DNA of 64,000 nt, taken from the IMG/VR virus record IMGVR_UViG_3300050034_000334, one strand, 5' to 3'. The DNA is from a virus. Lineage: Duplodnaviria; Caudoviricetes. The position numbers and the translations under genes are program-made. Below, one piece after another: positions 17,700 through 62,895 of this stretch. Below the pieces are notes generated by a model. The model searched no databases and was not told the origin of the DNA. It worked only from the letters and a program-made list of their open reading frames with translations. Numbering within the stretch: the stretch's first letter is position 1; the number at the start of each line of letters is the position of its first letter.

Positions 17700-18110
17700 T
17701 CTTTGCCACGTGATCCCGGTTTATCCAGGACCTTCTGTTGCTAGGATCGTAACCGACCCCCGACAGCGATTAAGCTGCCATTGCCAGCGGAGCGAACGAA
17801 CGGACCGGGAAGGCCAGGACGTTGCTACGACGGGCGCTGATACCATTGTCGGTAGCAGTTATTGTTTCTGTGTCCGATTACGGAGGGCCACAGCGTACCG
17901 AGTTGTTATCTCTGGTCAGTTCCAATTGTCGAATCTGTTCGCCCCCATCATAAGCACTCTGGTTCCCAACTTCTGAACAGTCTCTTCTCCAGCGACCGTA
18001 TGAAATTCTAGGCGAAGTGGAGAGTGCTTATGGTGGAGGCGCGGGTCTATGCTAACCCGGTCCAAATGGCACATCACTTTGACTTCAGCTCCGAAGAGCA
18101 TACAACCATA
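17700..18110 (-). ncRNA. ssrA: Circularly permuted (two-piece) tmRNA: acceptor piece ~18110-18031, intervening segment 18030-17947, coding piece 17946-~17700
   Basis: Minus strand: ...GACCGGGT-TAGCATAG-ACCCG-CGCCTCC-A-CCA comes before GGGGGCG-AACAGATTCGAC. The acceptor stem has G3:U70; resume context AATAACT|GCT; tag frame 17856-17770 = ATDNGISARRSNVLAFPVRSFAPLAMAA*. Intervening ends pair (ATAAGCACTCT/AGAGTGCTTAT). Has its own promoter and terminator. Confidence 0.92.
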
Positions 18111-18116
18111 TAGATA

Positions 18117-18145
18117 GTCTACTGGCTATATTTGAATTCCAGGTA
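18117..18145 (-). promoter_or_regulatory. Phage promoter TACCTG-N17-GTAGAC driving the tmRNA
   Basis: One-mismatch match to the consensus, 17-bp spacer, just upstream of the acceptor piece. Confidence 0.65.
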
Positions 18146-51084: not shown

Positions 51085-51161
51085 TGGCGACCCTGATGGG
51101 ATTTGAACCCACGTTCCCGGCTTGAGAGGCCAGTCTCCTAGGCCATCTAGAGGACAGGGTC
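51085..51161 (-). tRNA. tRNA-Glu(CTC)
   Basis: Cloverleaf, loop CTCTCAA, CCA. Confidence 0.9.
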
Positions 51162-51174
51162 GTATGTGGAAAGT

Positions 51175-51251
51175 TGGTAGCGTGTATGGGATTTGAACCC
51201 ATGATTCCCTGCGTGAAAGGCAGATGTCCTTGACCACTAGACGAACACGCC
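51175..51251 (-). tRNA. tRNA-Glu(TTC)
   Basis: Cloverleaf, loop CTTTCAC, CCA. Confidence 0.92.
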
Positions 51252-51338
51252 ACAGTCAAATTCTATCCCGGATGATTGAGTCGTCCAGCGGTGTTTTCCT
51301 GGCATGGATAACGCTGAACAGTTCGACCCGGGAATTTC

Positions 51339-51414
51339 TGGTGGAGATAACTGGAGTCGAACCAGTGGCCTCCGCAGTGCGAGTGCGGCGCTCTCCCAAC
51401 TGAGCTATACCCCC
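51339..51414 (-). tRNA. tRNA-Ala(CGC)
   Basis: G3:U70, loop CTCGCAC, CCA. Confidence 0.92.
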
Positions 51415-51434
51415 GAAAAACTGCTACAAAACTT

Positions 51435-51510
51435 TGGTGGAGACAGAGGGGTTCGAACCCCCGACCTCTTGCTTGCAAAGCAGGCGCTCTCCCAACTGAG
51501 CTATGCCCCC
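51435..51510 (-). tRNA. tRNA-Ala(TGC)
   Basis: G3:U70, loop TTTGCAA, CCA. Confidence 0.92.
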
Positions 51511-51616
51511 ACGATGTCAGACAACAGCGCCTGACGGATAAATTCATCAGCATGAGAGGCGTCGAGTCGAGCCAAGCTCTGATCTCGTCCCTCTGGTTCA
51601 TACTGCCTTGAAGTCT

Positions 51617-51692
51617 TGGTGGAGATGACAGGGTTCGAACCTGCGACCTCAACGCTGCCAGCGTCGCGCTCTCCCAACTGAGCTACACCCCC
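51617..51692 (-). tRNA. tRNA-Ala(GGC)
   Basis: G3:U70, loop CTGGCAG, CCA. Confidence 0.92.
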
Positions 51693-51889
51693 ACTATCAC
51701 GAAGATACCACTGTGCCGCAAGCCTCTTGTGTACGCTATTCAAATCGGCATCCAAATGTTCCTTCATGGTTCTCTCCATACTCAATCTTGGAGCGGGTTT
51801 CCAGGTTTCCCTGTTTCATGAACTGGCTCCATCCTGCAGGAACAGATAACCAGACATGCTTCCTTGCGGAAGCCCGCATATCAAAAAGT

Positions 51890-51966
51890 TGGCGGGGCCG
51901 ACGAGACTTGAACTCGCGACTTCTTGCGTGACAGGCAAGCACTCTGACCAGCTGAGCTACGACCCC
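51890..51966 (-). tRNA. tRNA-Asp(GTC)
   Basis: Cloverleaf, loop CTGTCAC, G73, CCA. Confidence 0.93.
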
Positions 51967-52760
51967 GCATTGTGCTTGTCATATATCTGAAACAGATCAG
52001 AGATAGCCAAGCCAGAAAACTTTTCAGCAAATGCAAATACTTCGGATAGATCACTTTCAAAAAGGAAAGTCACATTTGGATGAGCCTTTTGTTTTGCCTC
52101 AGTTTGAGCAGAAGGCCATCCCTTGATTTCTATGAGTTTCCCATCCACTTCAAAGTCAGGAAAGAATTTCTTAAAAGATCCTTGGAATTCGTACTTCAAC
52201 CCCAGCCTATTTCTCTGGATTGATTTCCCATTTTCTAGACACCAAATCAAGAAAGCACATTCCCAAGTTGATTGAACTAGAAATCCTCTGAATCTTCCTT
52301 GTTTTCCTCTTCCTCCCTTTTCTCGAAAACCACCTATCCTATTTGAGTTGTGAATACCCAACATCCGAATCATTCGTACACAATCATCCGAGCAAGTTAT
52401 CCTCCCCTTTAAGGAAGGTTTCCCACAATATTTGCAAGGAACAGGAACTCGATTTCTGTCCCTTTCCTGCCGCTCTTTGCTTCGTATCTCTAGGATTCTC
52501 TTGTGACTTTCAGGACTCCAAGGATTCCTTGAAGCAAAACTACGAGCACAGGATATCTTGCAAAACCGTTCTTTCTCTCCCTCCTTAATCTCTTTTTGGA
52601 AGGTAGTGTTACAATTCTCGCAAACAAACTGGCAAGTGATCCGATTATTACAACAAGGTTTCTTAATTCTAGGTCGCAGAGAACAGTTCCGGATATGCGC
52701 TCCCCAAACTTGACCCCTTTCGTTCCCCCTCATCAATCTGCACCACTGGCACTGACTCAT
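51957..52760 (-). CDS. PD-(D/E)XK (TnsA-like) endonuclease with Zn-finger N-terminus, probable homing endonuclease inside the tRNA cluster
   Basis: 'STWECAF...FFPDFEVDGKLIEIKGW'; AGGAGG SD; AT-rich; its stop overlaps the 5' end of tRNA-Asp. Confidence 0.75.
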   Translation of the reverse strand: MSQCQWCRLMRGNERGQVWGAHIRNCSLRPRIKKPCCNNRITCQFVCENCNTTFQKEIKEGEKERFCKISCARSFASRNPWSPESHKRILEIRSKERQERDRNRVPVPCKYCGKPSLKGRITCSDDCVRMIRMLGIHNSNRIGGFREKGGRGKQGRFRGFLVQSTWECAFLIWCLENGKSIQRNRLGLKYEFQGSFKKFFPDFEVDGKLIEIKGWPSAQTEAKQKAHPNVTFLFESDLSEVFAFAEKFSGLAISDLFQIYDKHNAGS

Positions 52761-52803
52761 GATTCCGACCTCCTATAATCAAATAGGAAGTCGGAATTCA
52801 AAG

Positions 52804-52875
52804 AGCGGGTAGTCAGATTTGAACTGACGCATGATAGAGTGGAAGTCTATTGCCTTACCACTTGGCGATACCCGC
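52804..52875 (-). tRNA. tRNA-Gly(TCC), CCA not encoded
   Basis: GCGGGTA acceptor, loop CTTCCAC, U73, followed by CTT. Confidence 0.88.
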
Positions 52876-52892
52876 AACTTGTACAACAAAAT

Positions 52893-52967
52893 TGGAGCGG
52901 CGGATGGGATTTGAACCCACGACCTCTTGCTTGGCAAGCAAATGTTCTACCACTGAACTACCACCGC
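52893..52967 (-). tRNA. tRNA-Gly(GCC)
   Basis: Cloverleaf, loop TTGCCAA, CCA. Confidence 0.92.
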
Positions 52968-52972
52968 TCATC

Positions 52973-53083
52973 TGACGTGAATGAGTTTCGATTCATGTCT
53001 GGAATGCGCCCCCATAAACCCACCGCGATTGCCCCAATGGGCTTATGGTGGAGCAGATAACCCAAACACATCGACTCACGTCA
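52973..53083 (-). ncRNA. Candidate permuted Ala-acceptor mini-RNA (tmRNA-junction-like rod)
   Basis: TGCTCC-A-CCA followed by a 12-bp hairpin and then GGGGGCG; outer arms TGACGTGA/TCACGTCA pair; 13 nt identical to the tmRNA junction. Confidence 0.45.
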
Positions 53084-53123
53084 TAAATCTCTGCACGAAC
53101 GAAAAGTGAACTTCGTTTTTTAA

Positions 53124-53206
53124 GGCGTCCTAACCCCTAGACGACAGCCCCATGATTTGGCGGGGCCACCAGGATTCGAACCTGGGTATCCTCCTTGACA
53201 GGGAGA
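53124..53206 (-). tRNA. Candidate circularly permuted tRNA-Asp(GTC) (3' part 53206-53158, then 5' part 53151-53124)
   Basis: Anticodon arm, T-arm, TGGCCCC-G-CCA, a 6-nt linker, then GGGGCTG plus a complete D-arm; the two parts pair into one cloverleaf. May be two decayed tandem copies. Confidence 0.5.
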
Positions 53207-53236
53207 ACAAAATTCTGACGGCTCGTGCAAAACCTT

Positions 53237-53314
53237 TGGTGCGCCGTCAGGGATTCGAACCCCGGACCTACTGCTTGTAAGGCAGCCGCTCTAACCGGAC
53301 TGAGCTAACAGCGC
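53237..53314 (-). tRNA. tRNA-Val(TAC)
   Basis: Cloverleaf, loop CTTACAA, CCA. Confidence 0.93.
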
Positions 53315-53327
53315 ACATCTTAGTACC

Positions 53328-53358
53328 AAAACGAAAAGGACAGCCGCTTGGGCTGTCC
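53328..53358 (-). terminator. Rho-independent terminator
   Basis: GGACAGC-CCAAGCG-GCTGTCC followed by TTTTCGTTTT. Confidence 0.8.
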
Positions 53359-53379
53359 TTGGTTGAATCTCGCTGAAGT

Positions 53380-53484
53380 TTAGCTGATTCGCACCAAGGA
53401 CAGATGCCCGGTATCCACGCCCTCCGCTGCTTCAGCGGCGACGACCGTTGCAACTGCTCCGACGAATTCAACCATGCTCTTCAT
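53380..53484 (-). CDS. Small peptide MKSMVEFVGAVATVVAAEAAEGVDTGHLSLVRIS (34 aa)
   Basis: GGAG SD and a downstream terminator. Confidence 0.45.
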   Translation of the reverse strand: MKSMVEFVGAVATVVAAEAAEGVDTGHLSLVRIS

Positions 53485-53764
53485 GACAATCTCCATAATA
53501 CTACGGATTTGCTCTCCGTAAACTACTATTTTTGCCACCAGGCAAAAGATTTCGCGTGTAGGAGGATGATAGCCCAGACACTGGTGACCAGATGTGACTA
53601 TCACCACTACACGCATCTCAAACTTTGCGACGGAGTTTAGCACCCTCTAAAGTGTCGCTCACTCCATCGTTCAGGAAGGTTTCGCACTTTCGCGTACACC
53701 TACAACCCTGTCATCTAGGACATCGCTGTTATGCTAGTTCATCGAAGCTCAATTTGTCGGCGAC

Positions 53765-58315: not shown

Positions 58316-61300
58316 CTAACTGCATCCAGTTGTTTGTCCACAATCGTTGCACTTTTCACAGGTTCCGGATCTCACCATGTGCATAGATCCGCAAGCACCA
58401 CAGGAGTTCCCAGTGAAACCACTGCGCTTGGCTTCACTGGCCTCTGATACGGTTGGCAAACGTGTTTCTTTGTCTACTAACAGCCCCAATGATTTCACCT
58501 TTTCCTTGTCCTCAGGTTTGATGTGGGCAAGGTCATAGCGATCCAGATAGGTGATTGCCAACTCACGGAAGACATAATCCATCAGAGAAGTGGCATTCTT
58601 GACATAGCTGGAACCCTGAACAAATCCAGAAGGTTCAAACTTGGTGAAAGTGAACGCATCCACAAACTCCTCGAGCGGAACGCCGTACTGCAATCCCAGA
58701 CTGATGGCGATAGCAAAGCAGTTGAGGAGAGAACGCAAGGTTGCTCCCTCGCGACTGACATCGATGAAGACCTCTCCCAACCTGCCATCCTCGTACTCCC
58801 CGGTGTGCAGATAGAGGGAATGATCGCCAATTTTGGCCTTCTGTACAAATCCATGGCGACGGTATGGTAGACGCTTGCGAAATCCTCGAGCTAATGCTTC
58901 TGCCAAGACAGCAGCTTTTGTGTCGTTGTTGGCACCGCTGGTGAGCACTTCAACTTCCTTCTCATCCAGGCCCTCCAGCAGCTGCATGTTTGTGGCTAGA
59001 GCCTGTGACATCTTGGATCCGTCACGATACAGAGCCACTGCTTTGATGCCAAGTTCCCACGCCAACAGATGAATGTCATTGAAGTCTTGTTGAGTAGAGT
59101 TGGCCGGGAGATTTACAGTCTTGCTGATAGCTCCTGAAATGAAGGGTTGAACAGCTGCCATCATCTCCACATGAGCACGTGGAGAGATGAAACGAGTACC
59201 ATTTTCACCACACTTGTTGGCACAATCGAACACGGCCAAGTGAGCATTCTTCAAGGCCGGTGCCCCTTCGATGGTCTTCTCGTTCTCGATGTGCTTGAGG
59301 ATCTCAACCACTTGTTCGTCCGTGTACCCCAAGTTCTTCAAGGCCGGAGGGACAGACTGATTGACTATCTTGAAGTATCCTCCACCGGCCAACTTCTTGA
59401 ACTTCACCAGAGCATAGTCAGGTTCCGCTCCCGTCGTGTCGCAATCCATCACCAACCCGATGGTCCCTGTCGGAGCCAAGCAGGTGCTCTGGGCATTCCT
59501 CAACCCGAATTCCTCAACCTGAGACACTACCTTGTCCCAGATGTCACGAGCCTGAGTGACCAGCTTTCTTGGTCCACGATAGAGAAGTTTCAGACCCACA
59601 GGAGTAGTTGAAAGCCCATCGTATCCAAGCTCTCCATTGTAAGCAGCCGAACGATGGTTCCGCATCACTTTCAAGACAACCTCTCGATTTTCATCATAGC
59701 CAGGAAACACTCCCAACTTCTGAGCCAAATCTGAGGATGTCAGGTACGATTCACCTGTCATGATGGCAGTGATGGCCGCAGCCCAGTTTCGGCCGGTCTC
59801 ACTGTCATAAGGAAAGCCCAGCTGCATGAGCATGGCGCCAAGGTTCGCGTATCCCAAGCCCAGGGTGCGGAACTTGTATGACAACTCAGCAATCGAGGGT
59901 CCTGGGAACTGAGCCATCGTTACAGAAATCTCTAGAGCGATGGTTGTCAAACGGCAGCAATGGCGGAAGGCCTCGACGTTGAACTCTCCGTCTTCCAGGA
60001 ACTTCACGAGATTTGAGGAAGCCAGATTGCAGGCAGTGTCATCCAGGAACATGTACTCGCTGTTGTGTATAAACACACCAGAAAAGTTGTCGTGACCATT
60101 CACACAAGACGGTTTTGACGAAGTGAAAACAGCAAAGTTGTGGGTATTGTCTACCGTACCATCGTAGACGTCTTCATTACCACAGAACTCTACCGAAACA
60201 ACCGTATGGTTGAAGTTGACCACGGCCTCTTGTAGTAACTCATCAGTGGGGTACCAACGAACAATAGTGTCTTTTGTGGGAAATTTCTTCACTCCAAGTT
60301 GCTTTGCTACATCTCGTAGTTCTTCCCAATTTTCTAGAGAAAAAGAAACTCCATTATCTTGAAAAGTTCGAGCAACCTCAGCAATCATACCCTCGATTAA
60401 ACGCTTCGAGTGACGTTCTCCAAACATTTGTTTACCAAGTGGAGATCTCTGACATTCAGTACCACAGCAAATCTGATCCTCCAAAATGGTGATGAAATTA
60501 CCACGGCATATAGGGCAGCAACGCTCAAATCGTTCAGCAGTTACTGTACGACCAATATGCCTACCCTCTGATCGCATTTTTGTTTGTGTTTCTCTTATAG
60601 ATCTACTCAACTGTTCGTGTTGTTGGTGGTCTTCCCATCTAGAAACTGCAGAATTACTCATATTCTGTTTGGAAACTTCACTGTGCTGTTTTCCAAACAT
60701 AGGGTTAAGTTCACCAGTGATTGATTTTGAAATGTTGGCACGCCATTCATCATTCATTAAACGACGGGCTGGATTATTGTCACCAAGCATTGATTCCCGA
60801 TGCAAAGCTGCATGATCCTTCGCAGACAATAGCTTGAAATTTTGTGGGTTATCATTCAGAGCATCAAAATCAGAGTGATGAATGTGATAACCTTCCGGTG
60901 CTTGACCAAAAAAGAAATCGTTAATTAAACGATACTGCTGAGCCCAACGAGTACCTCCCCACACATTTCTACGACGCGTGGCTCCTTTTCCATTTTGGAT
61001 TATGGAAGAGTGAAAAGGCATAAGAGAATCACCAGGTTGTAGGTCTATAACCTTTCGGTATGAACCATCCCGCAGCATCATAAGTTCGTCGTCAGTAACA
61101 CGTAGGCTACTTCCATCGTCAAACGTAACGCAGAAAATGGGAGCATTAGTTCTTTTAACTCCAATATTCCACATCAATTCTATTGAAGTCTTTTGCGTCC
61201 TGTGATTCCTGGTAAACACAGGCACTTCTGTTCCTACCAAATCTCTAATAGGAACCGCTGTACGACCATCTGCTACAGCCACCAAAGTCTCCCCAGTAAC

Positions 61301-62710
61301 ACAGCACGGATTGCTGGCATTGATTCTTCCGGAATTCAGACAAGTGTGCCAGTCATTGATGGTCGTGTCGAACTGGATCCCAGGATCTGCACAAAGGAAA
61401 GAAGCCCGGTTGATCTGATCAAACAACTTCTTGGCCTTAAGAGTCTTGGCCACTTCCCCGGTGGTGCGGAAGGTCAGATTCCAGTCCCTGTCCTTTTTGA
61501 CGGCATGCATGAATTCATCTGTGACACGAATTGTGTTGTTGGCATTCATGCCTGAGACTGTCTGGTATGCCTCTCCCTCCCAGTTCAGATCGTACAGAGG
61601 AAGATCGTCAGTGAAGTCAGATTCAGACAAACGAGTCAGACACTGCCCTAGAAATGCTCCAGGCACTCCCATTTTTCTGGCATGGCTGATGACTTTGGCA
61701 AGCTCCTTGTTCTCTTTCGGATTTGCCTTCAAAGCCAAATCTTTGGAAGTGAAGGTGTTGTAAGCCTCCAGCATCTCTCCCCAGATGGTGCGAAGGAGTT
61801 GACTGCCAGCAGCCATTGCAACAACCTTGCGCTCTTCATTCACCTTCCAGTTGATGAAGGCCTCTACATCGGGATGGTCCACATTGAGAACAACCATCTT
61901 GGCTGCTCTGCGGGTGGTTCCTCCAGACTTCACTCCTCCGGCTCCGACGTCTCCCACCTTCAACCAAGACATGAGACCTGAGCTCTTTCCGCCGCCGCTC
62001 AAAGGTTCTCCATATCCACGCAGGGCAGAGAAGTTGGATCCTGTTCCGGAGCCATACTTGAACAAGCGAGCCTCGCGATGGAACAGGTCGAAGATTCCTC
62101 CAGGATTGACGAGGTCGTCTTTCACTCCCTGAATGAAGCAGGCATGAGGCTGAGGACGCTTGTACGCAGAATCGCTCACGGTCAACTCTTTGGTGCCGTC
62201 GTCGACATAGTAGTGACCCTGTGGATCTCCCTCAATTCCGTATGCCCAGTACAAGCCGGTATTGAACCACTGAGGGGAATTGGGAGCAACGTACTGCATC
62301 ACCACCATGTAGAGCATCTCGTCGTAGTAGGCTTGGGCGTCTTTCTCTGAAGAGAAGTATCCGTATTCCTCTCCCCACCCAGTCCAGCAACCTACGATTC
62401 TATGAGCAGTCTGTCTCACATCAGTTTCGTAAGTGATCCCATCCGGATGGTCCAGCTTGGAGGCCCACTCGGTGGAGTACTTGCTGTTGTAAAGGGAGTT
62501 GGGGTGGTTGTGATTCACTCCTTGCCGGCGGAAATACTTCTGGGCAAGGATATCCAAGGCAGTCTGAGACCAGGATTCTGGCACGATGACATTGTCGTTC
62601 TCAAAAACCACAGAATTGTCTGGTCTAACGATGTTGGAGCATCTCCGTATGAAGCTGATGCCCTCTAAAGGCGACTGTCCGGCCTTGGTGAAAATTCGCT
62701 TTACCTTCAT
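58316..62710 (-). CDS. nrdJ: Class II (B12-dependent) ribonucleotide reductase, intein-containing
   Basis: 'PNSPQWFN', 'HACFI', 'SGTGSN', 'KSGGTTRRAA', 'ASNPC|SEY', 'ACNLAS', 'APTGTI', TSCPD-like C-terminus with a Cys cluster. Confidence 0.95.
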   Translation of the reverse strand: MKVKRIFTKAGQSPLEGISFIRRCSNIVRPDNSVVFENDNVIVPESWSQTALDILAQKYFRRQGVNHNHPNSLYNSKYSTEWASKLDHPDGITYETDVRQTAHRIVGCWTGWGEEYGYFSSEKDAQAYYDEMLYMVVMQYVAPNSPQWFNTGLYWAYGIEGDPQGHYYVDDGTKELTVSDSAYKRPQPHACFIQGVKDDLVNPGGIFDLFHREARLFKYGSGTGSNFSALRGYGEPLSGGGKSSGLMSWLKVGDVGAGGVKSGGTTRRAAKMVVLNVDHPDVEAFINWKVNEERKVVAMAAGSQLLRTIWGEMLEAYNTFTSKDLALKANPKENKELAKVISHARKMGVPGAFLGQCLTRLSESDFTDDLPLYDLNWEGEAYQTVSGMNANNTIRVTDEFMHAVKKDRDWNLTFRTTGEVAKTLKAKKLFDQINRASFLCADPGIQFDTTINDWHTCLNSGRINASNPCCVTGETLVAVADGRTAVPIRDLVGTEVPVFTRNHRTQKTSIELMWNIGVKRTNAPIFCVTFDDGSSLRVTDDELMMLRDGSYRKVIDLQPGDSLMPFHSSIIQNGKGATRRRNVWGGTRWAQQYRLINDFFFGQAPEGYHIHHSDFDALNDNPQNFKLLSAKDHAALHRESMLGDNNPARRLMNDEWRANISKSITGELNPMFGKQHSEVSKQNMSNSAVSRWEDHQQHEQLSRSIRETQTKMRSEGRHIGRTVTAERFERCCPICRGNFITILEDQICCGTECQRSPLGKQMFGERHSKRLIEGMIAEVARTFQDNGVSFSLENWEELRDVAKQLGVKKFPTKDTIVRWYPTDELLQEAVVNFNHTVVSVEFCGNEDVYDGTVDNTHNFAVFTSSKPSCVNGHDNFSGVFIHNSEYMFLDDTACNLASSNLVKFLEDGEFNVEAFRHCCRLTTIALEISVTMAQFPGPSIAELSYKFRTLGLGYANLGAMLMQLGFPYDSETGRNWAAAITAIMTGESYLTSSDLAQKLGVFPGYDENREVVLKVMRNHRSAAYNGELGYDGLSTTPVGLKLLYRGPRKLVTQARDIWDKVVSQVEEFGLRNAQSTCLAPTGTIGLVMDCDTTGAEPDYALVKFKKLAGGGYFKIVNQSVPPALKNLGYTDEQVVEILKHIENEKTIEGAPALKNAHLAVFDCANKCGENGTRFISPRAHVEMMAAVQPFISGAISKTVNLPANSTQQDFNDIHLLAWELGIKAVALYRDGSKMSQALATNMQLLEGLDEKEVEVLTSGANNDTKAAVLAEALARGFRKRLPYRRHGFVQKAKIGDHSLYLHTGEYEDGRLGEVFIDVSREGATLRSLLNCFAIAISLGLQYGVPLEEFVDAFTFTKFEPSGFVQGSSYVKNATSLMDYVFRELAITYLDRYDLAHIKPEDKEKVKSLGLLVDKETRLPTVSEASEAKRSGFTGNSCGACGSMHMVRSGTCEKCNDCGQTTGCS
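60062..61303 (-). mobile_element. Intein (414 aa) with HNH homing endonuclease, inserted at NPC^SE
   Basis: Begins 'CVTGETLV', ends 'VYDGTVDNTHNF...VFIHN' with +1 Ser; internal 'HIHHSDFDALNDNPQNF...H...H'; AT-rich. Confidence 0.93.
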
Positions 62711-62895
62711 GCTATTGTGTCCTTGGGTATGGGGGATTTCGAGGGTCAGAAATCGTACGTGATGATTCAATACTCAGCCTATGAAAGATTGGTTACAAGT
62801 TACCGATTACCAAGGTGGTTACTCACTCGGGTGCGTATTTCTTCATGCGGCGAAAGCATCGCCAAACGCTGGTCTCACTGGTAGGATGGATAAGT

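What the first reader, a model, noticed from the sequence alone, without database searches (positions are those of the whole stretch)
52973..53083. Second permuted element: a miniature tmRNA-like Ala acceptor with no message
On the minus strand TGCTCC-A-CCA is followed by a 12-bp GCAA-capped hairpin and then GGGGGCG, the same 3'-half/spacer/5'-half order as the tmRNA gene. The 13-mer CTCCACCATAAGC is identical to the tmRNA junction (53041-53053 vs 18026-18038). The outer arms pair over about 20 bp (TGACGTGAGT/ATTCACGTCA, CGAT/ATCG, GTGTTTG/CAGACAT). G3:U70 and A73 are kept, but there is no canonical T-arm and no tag frame. It could be a decayed ssrA paralog or a processed decoy for AlaRS, SmpB or an anti-phage nuclease (inference).
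Basis: partly seen in the sequence, partly recalled or inferred. Interest (0 to 1): 0.7.

Follow-up and report, generated by a model that had tools for sequence, protein, structure and literature searches.

The report
Back-to-front alanine acceptor on RNA rod
A giant peat-soil phage carries, inside its tRNA gene cluster, a conserved gene for a small rod-shaped RNA whose tip copies the alanine-accepting end of tRNA/tmRNA written back to front; it is a real and unusually stripped-down tRNA mimic, but what it does is still untested.

Summary
On the minus strand, 53083-52973 folds into a 111-nt rod (-54.1 kcal/mol, z -7.3). Its tip reads UGCUCC-A-CCA, then a 12-bp hairpin, then G-GGGGCG. The 13-mer CTCCACCATAAGC occurs only here and at the junction of the window's two-piece tmRNA gene.

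It is not a decaying relic. A second phage contig (L012) carries a diverged copy, also directly 5' of tRNA-Gly(GCC). There, all 8 pairs of the middle stem have changed and still pair. Five blocks stay invariant: the two strands of the base, GCUCCACCAU, AGCCCA and AUGGGGGCGCAU.

With the hairpin removed, the two halves are predicted to form a 6-bp acceptor helix with G3:U70, A73 and a free CCA. There is no T arm, no D arm and no conserved tag frame. No Rfam family matches.

Best reading: a minimal, permuted tRNA-Ala/tmRNA acceptor mimic on a protein-binding rod, akin to YrlB-type Y RNAs. It sits beside the YrlA-like RNA at 53089-53232. It is probably processed like the two-piece tmRNA, but this is not shown: the only RNA data were assembled contigs, which cover the element and cannot show ends.

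This scan had already noted the same stretch as a rod-like hairpin in an overlapping window. It found nothing like it on other DNA.

The parts
52973..53083 (-). Whole rod-shaped RNA element (111 nt). Index i = 53084 - coordinate.
   Evidence: Fold -54.1 kcal/mol, z -7.3. The covariance model finds it on the minus strand at 132.8 bits and on the plus strand at only 18 bits. 96.8% of cells are paired, with 6 pairs changed on both sides.
53075..53083 (-). 5' strand of the 9-bp basal stem. It pairs with 52973-52981.
   Evidence: Pairs 2-9 are invariant between the window and L012.
53069..53075 (-). GUCGAUG. It matches 6 of 7 positions of the bacterial Y-RNA Ro60-contact motif GNCGAAN0-1G. Its 5' strand is invariant; the opposite strand is variable.
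   Evidence: Sequence; motif from Chen et al. 2014, PMC4201824. The motif is short, so this is a lead only.
53061..53069 (-). 5' strand of the middle stem. It pairs with 52995-53003.
   Evidence: All 8 comparable pairs differ between the window and L012 and all remain standard pairs: 4 changed on both sides, 4 on one side.
53056..53060 (-). 5' side of the internal loop (UUAUC). It faces CAU at 53004-53006.
   Evidence: Unpaired in the folds of both homologues.
53050..53055 (-). 3' strand of the acceptor mimic, UGCUCC (positions 67-72 in tRNA numbering; U70 = 53052).
   Evidence: Dimer fold of the two halves. GCUCCACCAU is invariant in L012.
53046..53049 (-). Discriminator A73 (53049) and the encoded CCA (53048-53046).
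   Evidence: The window's tmRNA gene has the same ACCA-UAAGC.
53014..53045 (-). Intervening (spacer) hairpin of 12 bp. It would be excised if the RNA is processed.
   Evidence: The stem is kept in L012, with A-U to U-A, G-U to G-C and U-G to C-G changes and one break. The loop varies in sister strains.
53007..53013 (-). GGGGGCG: G(-1) at 53013, and the 5' acceptor strand G1-G6 at 53012-53007.
   Evidence: AUGGGGGCGCAU is invariant in L012. One Logan contig (L143) has A at 53009.
52973..53006 (-). 3' arm: loop CAU, 3' strand of the middle stem, AUCGA, a 6-nt bulge, and the 3' strand of the basal stem.
   Evidence: AACUCAUUCACGUCA is invariant in L012.
52893..52967 (-). tRNA-Gly(GCC), starting 5 nt after the rod. 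RNase P cleavage at its 5' end would set the rod's 3' end (inference).
   Evidence: ARAGORN and Rfam. The rod is directly 5' of a tRNA-Gly(GCC) in every context seen (window, L020, L141-L143, L012), although the tRNA itself differs strongly in L012.
53089..53232 (-). Neighbouring permuted tRNA-Asp-like RNA on a long stem (YrlA-like), 5 nt upstream of the rod. It is absent upstream of the L012 copy.
   Evidence: Sequence; sub-threshold Rfam tRNA hit of 23.5 bits; fold; earlier notes e1-5322938 and e1-5322934.
18026..18038 (-). The identical 13-mer at the CCA junction of the window's two-piece tmRNA gene (17723-18139).

Best explanation
The element is a gene for a small non-coding RNA, made on the same strand as the phage's tRNA array and probably within the same transcript.

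Architecture:
- The 5' and 3' ends pair into a rod with three stems.
- The base of the rod (invariant GACGUGAGUCGAUG opposite AACUCAUUCACGUCA) is a sequence-specific protein-binding site of the Y-RNA kind.
- The far end is an alanine-type acceptor mimic written in permuted order: UGCUCC-A-CCA, a spacer hairpin, then G-GGGGCG.

Proposed processing, as for the phage's own two-piece tmRNA:
- RNase P cuts before G1 (53012).
- The spacer hairpin is removed back to CCA (53046).
- RNase P cutting at the 5' end of tRNA-Gly(GCC) frees the 3' end.

Proposed product: a two-piece duplex of about 38 + 40 nt with a free GCUCCACCA-3' end carrying G3:U70 and A73, but no T or D arm. That end would dock tRNA-handling enzymes (AlaRS, CCA-adding enzyme, RNase P) and/or protect the RNA's ends.

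I read it as the minimal member of this phage's set of permuted tRNA mimics, paired with the YrlA-like RNA next to it as YrlB is paired with YrlA.

Shown: the structure, its conservation and covariation, the Ala-type junction, and its presence in RNA libraries.
Inferred: the cleavages, the protein partner, and any charging.
For: 1. Strong, strand-specific fold. It scores -54.1 kcal/mol, z -7.3. Eight G-U pairs make the plus strand a poor folder (18 versus 133 bits).

2. A diverged homologue exists in IMG/VR contig 3300042090_000643 (L012 5646-5749, 58 bits, E 2.6e-12 with a model built from the window alone).
- The Val-rod-Gly segment is 69-78% identical between the two phages; the rod plus tRNA-Gly(GCC) is 68.8% over 199 nt. 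The flanks are 96-99.8% identical.
- Within the rod, blocks of 14, 10, 6, 12 and 15 nt are invariant.

3. Covariation.
- 96.8% of cells are paired, against 33-48% when the partners are slid.
- 6 pairs are changed on both sides.
- 1 of 500 shuffles reaches the observed values.
- In the middle stem, 8 of 8 pairs changed and all still pair.

4. With the spacer removed, both homologues are predicted to form the same 6-bp acceptor with G3:U70, A73 and single-stranded ACCA.

5. The junction matches the tmRNA gene: CUCCACCA-UAAGC, then a hairpin, then UAU-GGGGGCG. None of the 13 tRNA genes has UAAGC after CCA.

6. The pre-tmRNA junction is predicted to be a continuous helix with CCA paired, like the rod. 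So a paired CCA in the precursor does not argue against processing. The tRNA-like register is only 1.5 kcal/mol above the minimum when a single pair is forced.

7. Contigs from four peat and permafrost metatranscriptomes of four studies cover the element.

8. Precedents.
- M. smegmatis YrlA is cut by RNase P in its acceptor-like stem and receives CCA.
- Characterised bacteria have a tRNA-like Y RNA plus a second, long-hairpin Y RNA, made from one precursor, in one case together with a tRNA (Chen et al. 2014, PMC4201824).

Against: - No RNA ends could be measured. All RNA runs were assembled contigs, and in three of four runs a contig runs unbroken across CCA, spacer and G1. An uncut form therefore exists, or DNA is present in the libraries.
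- The spacer hairpin itself is structurally conserved. This fits an intact rod as well as it fits a processing signal.
- In the uncut RNA the rod register with paired CCA is favoured (pairing probability 0.94-0.99).
- There are only two diverged sequences plus near-identical strain variants. One variant (L143) has GGGGACG, which breaks the G4-C69 pair.
- No TROVE/Ro60 gene is found in the window's 16 ORFs of 309 aa or more, nor in three shorter ORFs flanking the array. None is found in four related phage records.
- The Ro-type motif matches only 6 of 7 positions and is short.
- Rfam YrlA, Y_RNA and tmRNA models do not hit the element.
- There is no T stem to complete the 12-bp acceptor/T stack that RNase P and EF-Tu normally read.
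Confidence: 0.45

Rival explanations
1. Intact-rod Y RNA (YrlB/Yrn2 type). The RNA works as an uncut long hairpin that binds Ro60 or another protein through its base. The CCA/GGGG tip is an inherited or mimicking feature that is never opened, like the closed acceptor loop of most YrlA RNAs.
For: - The rod register is the minimum-energy fold, and the CCA is paired in it.
- The spacer hairpin keeps its structure through compensatory change.
- RNA contigs run unbroken across the junction in three of four metatranscriptomes.
- Every bacterium studied has a long-hairpin Y RNA beside the tRNA-like one (PMC4201824).
- GUCGAUG lies 9 nt from the 5' end, and only the 5' strand is conserved, as described for YrlA and YrlB.
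Against: - A plain rod would not need 10- and 12-nt invariant blocks that spell exactly the Ala acceptor end, with two conserved single-base bulges.
- The apical loop, where Y-RNA effectors usually bind, is the least conserved part, and it is not pyrimidine-rich.
- No Ro60 gene is in view.
- Rfam Y-RNA models do not hit the element.
Confidence: 0.3
2. Cis-acting processing or stability element of the tRNA-array transcript. The hairpin with a pseudo-acceptor recruits RNase P (or RNase III) to separate the upstream RNA or mRNA from tRNA-Gly(GCC). It leaves a stable 3' hairpin on the upstream product, as the mascRNA module does for MALAT1. It has no function of its own in trans.
For: - It always lies 2-5 nt upstream of tRNA-Gly(GCC).
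- In L012 it directly follows an ORF whose stop codon lies in its first bases.
- tRNA-like structures used for 3'-end formation are known (cited in bioRxiv 10.1101/312249).
Against: - tRNAs in the same array are separated by 9-100 nt spacers without such a device.
- The invariant basal-stem sequence and the Ala-specific identity elements are not needed for a mere cleavage site.
- RNase III has little sequence specificity.
Confidence: 0.12
3. Decaying duplicate of the ssrA junction, or a chance inverted repeat with no function.
For: - It has a 13-mer identity to the tmRNA junction.
- It has no T arm, no tag frame and no Rfam hit.
- The family is tiny: one IMG/VR contig besides the window's phage.
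Against: - Covariation in two stems and invariant blocks, within a segment about 31% diverged.
- It keeps its position next to tRNA-Gly(GCC) in four different array contexts.
- Similarity to tmRNA outside the junction is not above chance.
Confidence: 0.04

Closest known systems
Two-piece (circularly permuted) tmRNA, including the window's own gene at 17723-18139 (Rfam RF04321, RF01849)
   Same: - The gene order is the same: 3' acceptor strand-ACCA, intervening hairpin, then a G-run 5' strand.
- Both have G3:U70 and A73.
- The sequences are identical over CUCCACCAUAAGC and GGGGGCG.
- In both precursors the CCA is buried in a continuous helix.
   Different: - It has no T arm, no D-loop analogue, no pseudoknots and no conserved tag frame.
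- The short frames after GGGGGC (AFQT* in the window, AYGGSI* in L012) differ and lie inside a stem.
- The acceptor has 6 bp with an extra G(-1).
- The spacer is 32 nt rather than 84 nt.
- The covariance models do not score it (8.6 bits on L012).
TLD-only tmRNA-like RNA of mycobacteriophage DS6A (Hudson et al. 2014, PMC4131195), and message-less mitochondrial tmRNAs of jakobids (Jacob et al. 2004; from my own knowledge, not read here)
   Same: It is a phage- or organelle-encoded tmRNA derivative that keeps the alanine acceptor but has no message. For DS6A, a role as an inhibitor that titrates SmpB has been suggested.
   Different: Those RNAs keep the whole tRNA-like domain, with the T arm that SmpB and EF-Tu need. 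This element keeps only the acceptor helix on a rod, so titration of SmpB is unlikely.
Bacterial and phage Y RNAs: YrlA (RF02553) and the long-hairpin partners YrlB/Yrn2 (Chen et al. 2014, PMC4201824; Wang et al. 2018, bioRxiv 10.1101/312249)
   Same: - The ends pair into a long stem.
- A GNCGA-type motif lies on the 5' strand near the base.
- A permuted tRNA-like feature sits at the far end.
- It is encoded next to a tRNA-like Y-type RNA and to tRNAs.
- M. smegmatis YrlA is opened by RNase P and carries CCA.
   Different: - No Ro60 gene lies nearby.
- The motif matches 6 of 7 positions.
- There are no T or D arms (unlike YrlA).
- The CCA is encoded rather than added.
- The tip is Ala-specific.
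- The loop is not pyrimidine-rich.
- No Rfam hit.
Minihelix-Ala, microhelix-Ala and duplex-Ala substrates of AlaRS (Francklyn and Schimmel 1989, and later work; from my own knowledge)
   Same: It is an acceptor helix with G3:U70, A73 and CCA and no rest of the tRNA. Two annealed strands suffice for alanylation in vitro.
   Different: Those are laboratory constructs. This would be a natural, genome-encoded one. Charging has not been tested, and there are 6 pairs followed by a mismatch.

Membership tests
Two-piece tmRNA (RF04321 / RF01849) | Permuted gene order: acceptor 3' strand + CCA, intervening segment, then acceptor 5' strand | tested here: met
   Sequence and dimer fold.
Two-piece tmRNA (RF04321 / RF01849) | Alanine identity: G3:U70 with A73 | tested here: met
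   Present in the window and in L012 in the 6-bp register.
Two-piece tmRNA (RF04321 / RF01849) | T arm and tRNA-like domain elbow (SmpB site) | tested here: not met
   ARAGORN finds nothing. An Rfam E-value scan finds no tmRNA or tRNA hit on 52973-53083. The folds show an unbranched rod.
Two-piece tmRNA (RF04321 / RF01849) | Conserved tag reading frame with a resume codon | tested here: not met
   The frames after GGGGGC read AFQT* (window) and AYGGSI* (L012). They are not conserved, have no ...AA end, and lie in the middle stem (sequences).
Two-piece tmRNA (RF04321 / RF01849) | Covariance-model score at or above the gathering score | tested here: not met
   No hit at E <= 10. The L012 copy scores 8.6 bits against a cut-off of 47.
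Y RNA (YrlA / YrlB / Yrn2) | Long stem formed by the 5' and 3' ends | tested here: met
Y RNA (YrlA / YrlB / Yrn2) | GNCGAAN0-1G (Ro60 contact) near the 5' end | tested here: inconclusive
   GUCGAUG at i = 9-15 matches 6 of 7 positions. It is invariant in L012, while the opposite strand differs. The motif is too short to be diagnostic.
Y RNA (YrlA / YrlB / Yrn2) | Encoded within about 4 kb of a Ro60 (TROVE) gene on the same strand | tested here: not met
   No TROVE domain in the flanking ORFs, in any of the window's 16 ORFs of 309 aa or more, or in records G002-G005. The rest of the genome could not be searched.
Y RNA (YrlA / YrlB / Yrn2) | tRNA-like T and D arms (YrlA), or an RF02553 hit | tested here: not met
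   Unbranched rod; no RF02553 or RF00019 hit at E <= 10.
Y RNA (YrlA / YrlB / Yrn2) | Bound by Ro60/Rsr | not testable with these tools
   Needs immunoprecipitation or a gel-shift assay.
tRNA-Ala acceptor minihelix (AlaRS substrate) | Acceptor helix with G3:U70, A73 and CCA | tested here: met
tRNA-Ala acceptor minihelix (AlaRS substrate) | Free 3' CCA end in the mature RNA, and alanylation | not testable with these tools
   Only assembled RNA contigs were on hand. Ends and charging need raw small-RNA reads or biochemistry.
Functionless inverted repeat / pseudogene | No constraint: substitutions break pairs at random | tested here: not met
   96.8% of cells paired; 6 pairs changed on both sides; slid controls give 33-48%.

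The most novel reading that the evidence does not exclude
The phage makes a natural two-piece 'duplex-Ala': a T-arm-less RNA that AlaRS charges with alanine but that cannot enter the ribosome.

It would act off the ribosome in one of two ways:
- as a sink or decoy for AlaRS, or for an acceptor-end-directed host nuclease or acetyltransferase toxin; or
- as a dedicated alanine donor for a non-ribosomal aminoacyl-transferase.

That would be a new class of genome-encoded minimal acceptor RNA.
Probability: 0.1. Interest if true: 0.85.

Novelty: new variant of a known kind. Interest (0 to 1): 0.52.

Why it matters
Natural tRNA mimics described so far (tmRNA, YrlA, viral tRNA-like structures, mascRNA) keep the L-shaped core. 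This element keeps only the acceptor end, written in the permuted order of two-piece tmRNA and mounted on a Y-RNA-like rod. It is conserved under selection in a jumbo phage that also carries a tmRNA and several YrlA-like RNAs.

If it is processed, it would be the smallest natural RNA with a full alanine identity set. It would also link two RNA families (tmRNA and Y RNA) that already co-occur in large phages such as the Bxz1 group.

It offers a simple test object for three questions:
- how permuted RNA genes are opened by RNase P;
- what an acceptor end alone is good for during infection;
- which protein reads the invariant base of the rod.

If it is not processed, it is one more lineage-specific phage small RNA of modest interest.

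Tried and rejected
1. An exact 17-mer scan of IMG/VR (TGCTCCACCATAAGCCC) gave four hits, all chance matches in coding DNA or terminators.

2. Four more IMG/VR pattern scans found only the L012 contig, plus six chance hits in GC-rich coding DNA and one chance locus (L140). The four patterns were the basal stem, the junction, a three-block pattern and a flank anchor.

3. Two scans of 185,579 bacterial and archaeal genomes were run.
- The three-block pattern gave 0 hits.
- The looser junction pattern gave 102 hits, 69 of them with a fixed 57-nt span in conserved coding genes. None is a homologue.

4. A blastn search of the element against 50,697 GenBank phages gave nothing.

5. Covariance models R1 and R2 found no copy:
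- elsewhere in the window;
- in relatives that are 49-66% identical in protein (L005-L008, L024, L026);
- in records G003 (313 kb, complete), G004 and G005;
- in Tunturiibacter phage Tunturi_5.

6. Contigs anchored on neighbouring proteins show that the tRNA array is mosaic. Most relatives lack this part or are cut short.

7. Local alignment of the arms and spacer to the tmRNA halves, excluding the junction, is not above shuffles.

8. RNA contigs.
- In run X1 one contig stops at 53042, 4 nt past CCA. Another starts at 52985. 52986-53041 is uncovered.
- This is one study and contigs only, so it is not evidence for ends.
- The strain variants at 53027 and 53032 do not explain these exact stops.

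9. RF02553 on related records gives only sub-threshold hits of the kind that ordinary tRNAs also give in the control genomes.

10. The plus-strand ORF 52839-53060 (73 aa) overlaps tRNA genes on the other strand and was dismissed.

Full report
**1. Observation**

Read on the minus strand, 53083-52973 contains the following, in order:
- a 5' arm;
- UGCUCC-A-CCA, with the CCA at 53048-53046;
- a 32-nt hairpin;
- GGGGGCG, starting at 53013;
- a 3' arm complementary to the 5' arm.

As RNA it folds into one unbranched rod at -54.1 kcal/mol. Dinucleotide shuffles average -31.5 (z -7.3, none of 200 as good).

The 13-mer CTCCACCATAAGC occurs only twice in the window. One copy is here. The other is at 18026-18038, the CCA junction of a circularly permuted tmRNA gene. 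Shuffled windows gave no matches. Rfam recognises that tmRNA gene (RF04321 64.8 bits, RF01849 61.6 bits).

The tmRNA junction reads CUCCACCA-UAAGC, then a hairpin, then GCUUAU-GAU-GGGGGCG. The small element reads CUCCACCA-UAAGC, then a hairpin, then GUUUAU-GGGGGCG. None of the 13 ordinary tRNA genes has UAAGC after its CCA.

ARAGORN and an Rfam scan at E <= 10 find no tRNA, tmRNA, Y RNA or other family in the element.

**2. Setting**

The window comes from an uncultured jumbo phage of peat and permafrost soils. Its helicase sits on contigs of up to 342 kb. Metatranscriptomes labelled peat or permafrost hold the stretch. The phage's own assembly is not held.

The element lies in a tRNA array, all on the minus strand:
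- tRNA-Val;
- a permuted tRNA-Asp-like RNA on a long stem (53232-53089);
- 5 nt of spacer;
- the rod;
- 5 nt of spacer;
- tRNA-Gly(GCC), then tRNA-Gly(UCC).

Earlier agents of this scan read the neighbour as a YrlA-type Y RNA (e1-5322938, e1-5322934). I confirm its architecture: an Rfam tRNA hit of 23.5 bits without a D arm and a fold with a closing stem. I note that RF02553 does not score it.

**3. A homologue, and covariation**

A search with the nearby helicase fetched IMG/VR contig 3300042090_000643 (L012; 95% amino-acid identity). Directly 5' of its tRNA-Gly(GCC) lies a diverged copy of the rod (L012 5646-5749). A covariance model built from the window alone finds this copy at 58 bits, E 2.6e-12.

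The two arrays are mosaic:
- The flanks are 96-99.8% identical.
- The Val-rod-Gly segment is only 69-78% identical; the rod plus tRNA-Gly(GCC) is 68.8% over 199 nt.
- The two tRNA-Gly(GCC) genes differ strongly.

Inside the rod five blocks are invariant:
- GACGUGAGUCGAUG
- GCUCCACCAU
- AGCCCA
- AUGGGGGCGCAU
- AACUCAUUCACGUCA

The stems between these blocks vary and still pair:
- In the middle stem all 8 comparable pairs differ and all remain standard pairs, 4 changed on both sides.
- In the spacer hairpin, A-U becomes U-A, G-U becomes G-C and U-G becomes C-G, with one break.
- On the model-based alignment, 96.8% of cells pair, against 33-48% for slid partners. Six pairs are changed on both sides, and 1 of 500 shuffles reaches the observed values.

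Eight G-U pairs make the fold specific to the tRNA strand (18 bits on the plus strand against 133 on the minus strand).

Identical or near-identical copies occur in a JGI contig and three Logan contigs (L020, L141-L143). In L142 and L143 the downstream context differs, yet the rod always abuts tRNA-Gly(GCC).

In L012 the upstream neighbour is a 225-aa ORF, not the YrlA-like RNA. The rod therefore does not depend on that neighbour.

Together these results exclude a chance repeat or a decaying pseudogene.

**4. The tip**

With the spacer removed, the two halves of both homologues are predicted to anneal with a 6-bp helix, GGGGCG with UGCUCC:
- G1-C72, G2-C71, G3:U70, G4-C69, C5-G68;
- G6:U67 in the window, G6-C67 in L012.

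This is followed by single-stranded ACCA. The first G of the run is left as position -1, so G1 is 53012.

In the uncut RNA a shifted register pairs the CCA with the first Gs and bulges U32 and A35. That register is about 5 kcal/mol better than the tRNA-like one, although forcing the single pair 34-72 costs only 1.5 kcal/mol.

The precursor of the phage's genuine tmRNA is predicted to bury its CCA in the same kind of continuous helix. A paired CCA is therefore not an argument against cleavage.

Outside the junction, the arms and spacer are not significantly similar to the tmRNA halves. The relation to ssrA is thus limited to the junction. It could be a small duplication, or convergence on the same processing signals.

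**5. RNA evidence**

Eighteen RNA runs hold part of the 701-nt stretch. I laid four metatranscriptomes from four studies, all kept as assembled contigs.
- Contigs cover the whole element.
- In three runs one contig spans CCA, spacer and G1. This is as expected for a precursor, an uncut RNA, or contaminating DNA.
- A sister strain differs only in the apical loop (53027, and a one-base deletion at 53032).
- One contig in one run stops 4 nt after the CCA. That is not evidence.

Ends, strand and abundance could not be measured.

**6. What it most likely is**

The strict conservation of exactly those bases that define an alanine acceptor end stands in contrast to the free covariation of the neighbouring stems. 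This points to recognition by tRNA-handling machinery. The conserved bases are G1-G4, U70, A73 and CCA.

The invariant base of the rod points to a sequence-specific protein. Its 5' strand carries GUCGAUG 9 nt from the end. This is one base off the GNCGAAN0-1G motif that Chen et al. 2014 tie to Ro60 binding. As in YrlA and YrlB, only the 5' strand is conserved.

Chen et al. also report:
- Every bacterium studied has a tRNA-like Y RNA plus a long-hairpin Y RNA.
- These are cut from common precursors, in Deinococcus together with a tRNA.
- M. smegmatis YrlA is opened by RNase P in its acceptor-like stem and receives CCA.

My best reading (confidence 0.45): this is a minimal permuted acceptor mimic on a Y-RNA-like rod. 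It is processed like the two-piece tmRNA into a two-piece duplex with a free Ala-type CCA end.

The main rival (0.30) is the same RNA working uncut. A purely cis-acting processing element (0.12) and a functionless relic (0.04) are less likely.

**7. Membership**

It is not a tmRNA. It has no T arm, no conserved tag frame and no model score.

It cannot be filed as a Y RNA either:
- No Ro60 gene lies in the window or in four related records.
- No Rfam Y-RNA model hits it.
- The Ro-type motif is imperfect.

It works like, and sits among, both kinds.

The nearest precedents for a message-less phage tmRNA derivative keep the full tRNA-like domain. One is mycobacteriophage DS6A, described as 'TLD only' in PMC4131195.

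**8. Novelty**

I rate it a new variant of a known kind. The family is tiny: the window's phage clade plus one IMG/VR contig. Nothing was found in 50,697 GenBank phages, in 185,579 prokaryotic genomes, or in more distant jumbo-phage relatives.

Its interest rests on one experiment that is easy to do: mapping the ends.

Noticed in passing
window 52933 (inside tRNA-Gly(GCC), 52893-52967, minus strand): RNA contigs of three metatranscriptomes (X1, X2, X4) carry a 20-nt insertion in the anticodon loop of this tRNA, at or next to the anticodon. The window, L020 and L141-L143 lack it. It could be an intron-like insert or a strain variant that disrupts the tRNA; this is unexplained.
   Followed up: partly
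window 53089-53232 (minus strand): A permuted tRNA-Asp-like RNA. In order it has a GUC anticodon arm, a T arm, an acceptor 3' strand with GCCA, 6 nt, then GGGGCUG plus a D arm, all closed by a long stem. Rfam tRNA scores only 23.5 bits and RF02553 gives no hit. One RNA contig of run X3 spans 53088-53233. A sister strain has C-to-U at 53165, which turns an acceptor G-C pair into G-U.
   Followed up: partly
L012 4976-5653: In the sister contig a 225-aa ORF with no Pfam hit replaces the YrlA-like RNA between tRNA-Val and the rod. Its TGA stop codon lies in the first bases of the rod. It shares only a weak C-x2-C...FC-x2-CAR N-terminal motif with the window's 267-aa array ORF (51957-52760).
   Followed up: partly
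window 51085-53621 versus L012 4565-7753, L021, L025: The tRNA array is a mosaic. The flanks are 96-99.8% identical between the two phages, while the Val-rod-Gly part is 69-78% identical. Genes are inserted, lost or reordered. L021 keeps only the two tRNA-Glu genes, and L012 has an extra tRNA-Val(GAC).
   Followed up: partly
L143 1118-1227 (equivalent to window 53009): One Logan contig has GGGGACG instead of GGGGGCG in the rod, which breaks the G4-C69 pair. It also has the apical-loop variant. This may be a real strain variant or an assembly error.
   Followed up: no
window 53336-53360 (minus strand): A terminator-like hairpin (10 pairs, followed by a T run) lies about 20 nt upstream of tRNA-Val. 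The array would therefore need its own promoter or read-through. No sigma-70-like promoter lies between the hairpin and the array.
   Followed up: no
window 58316-62770 (minus strand): A class II ribonucleotide reductase of 1484 aa is interrupted by an intein with HNH and NUMOD3 endonuclease motifs.
   Followed up: no
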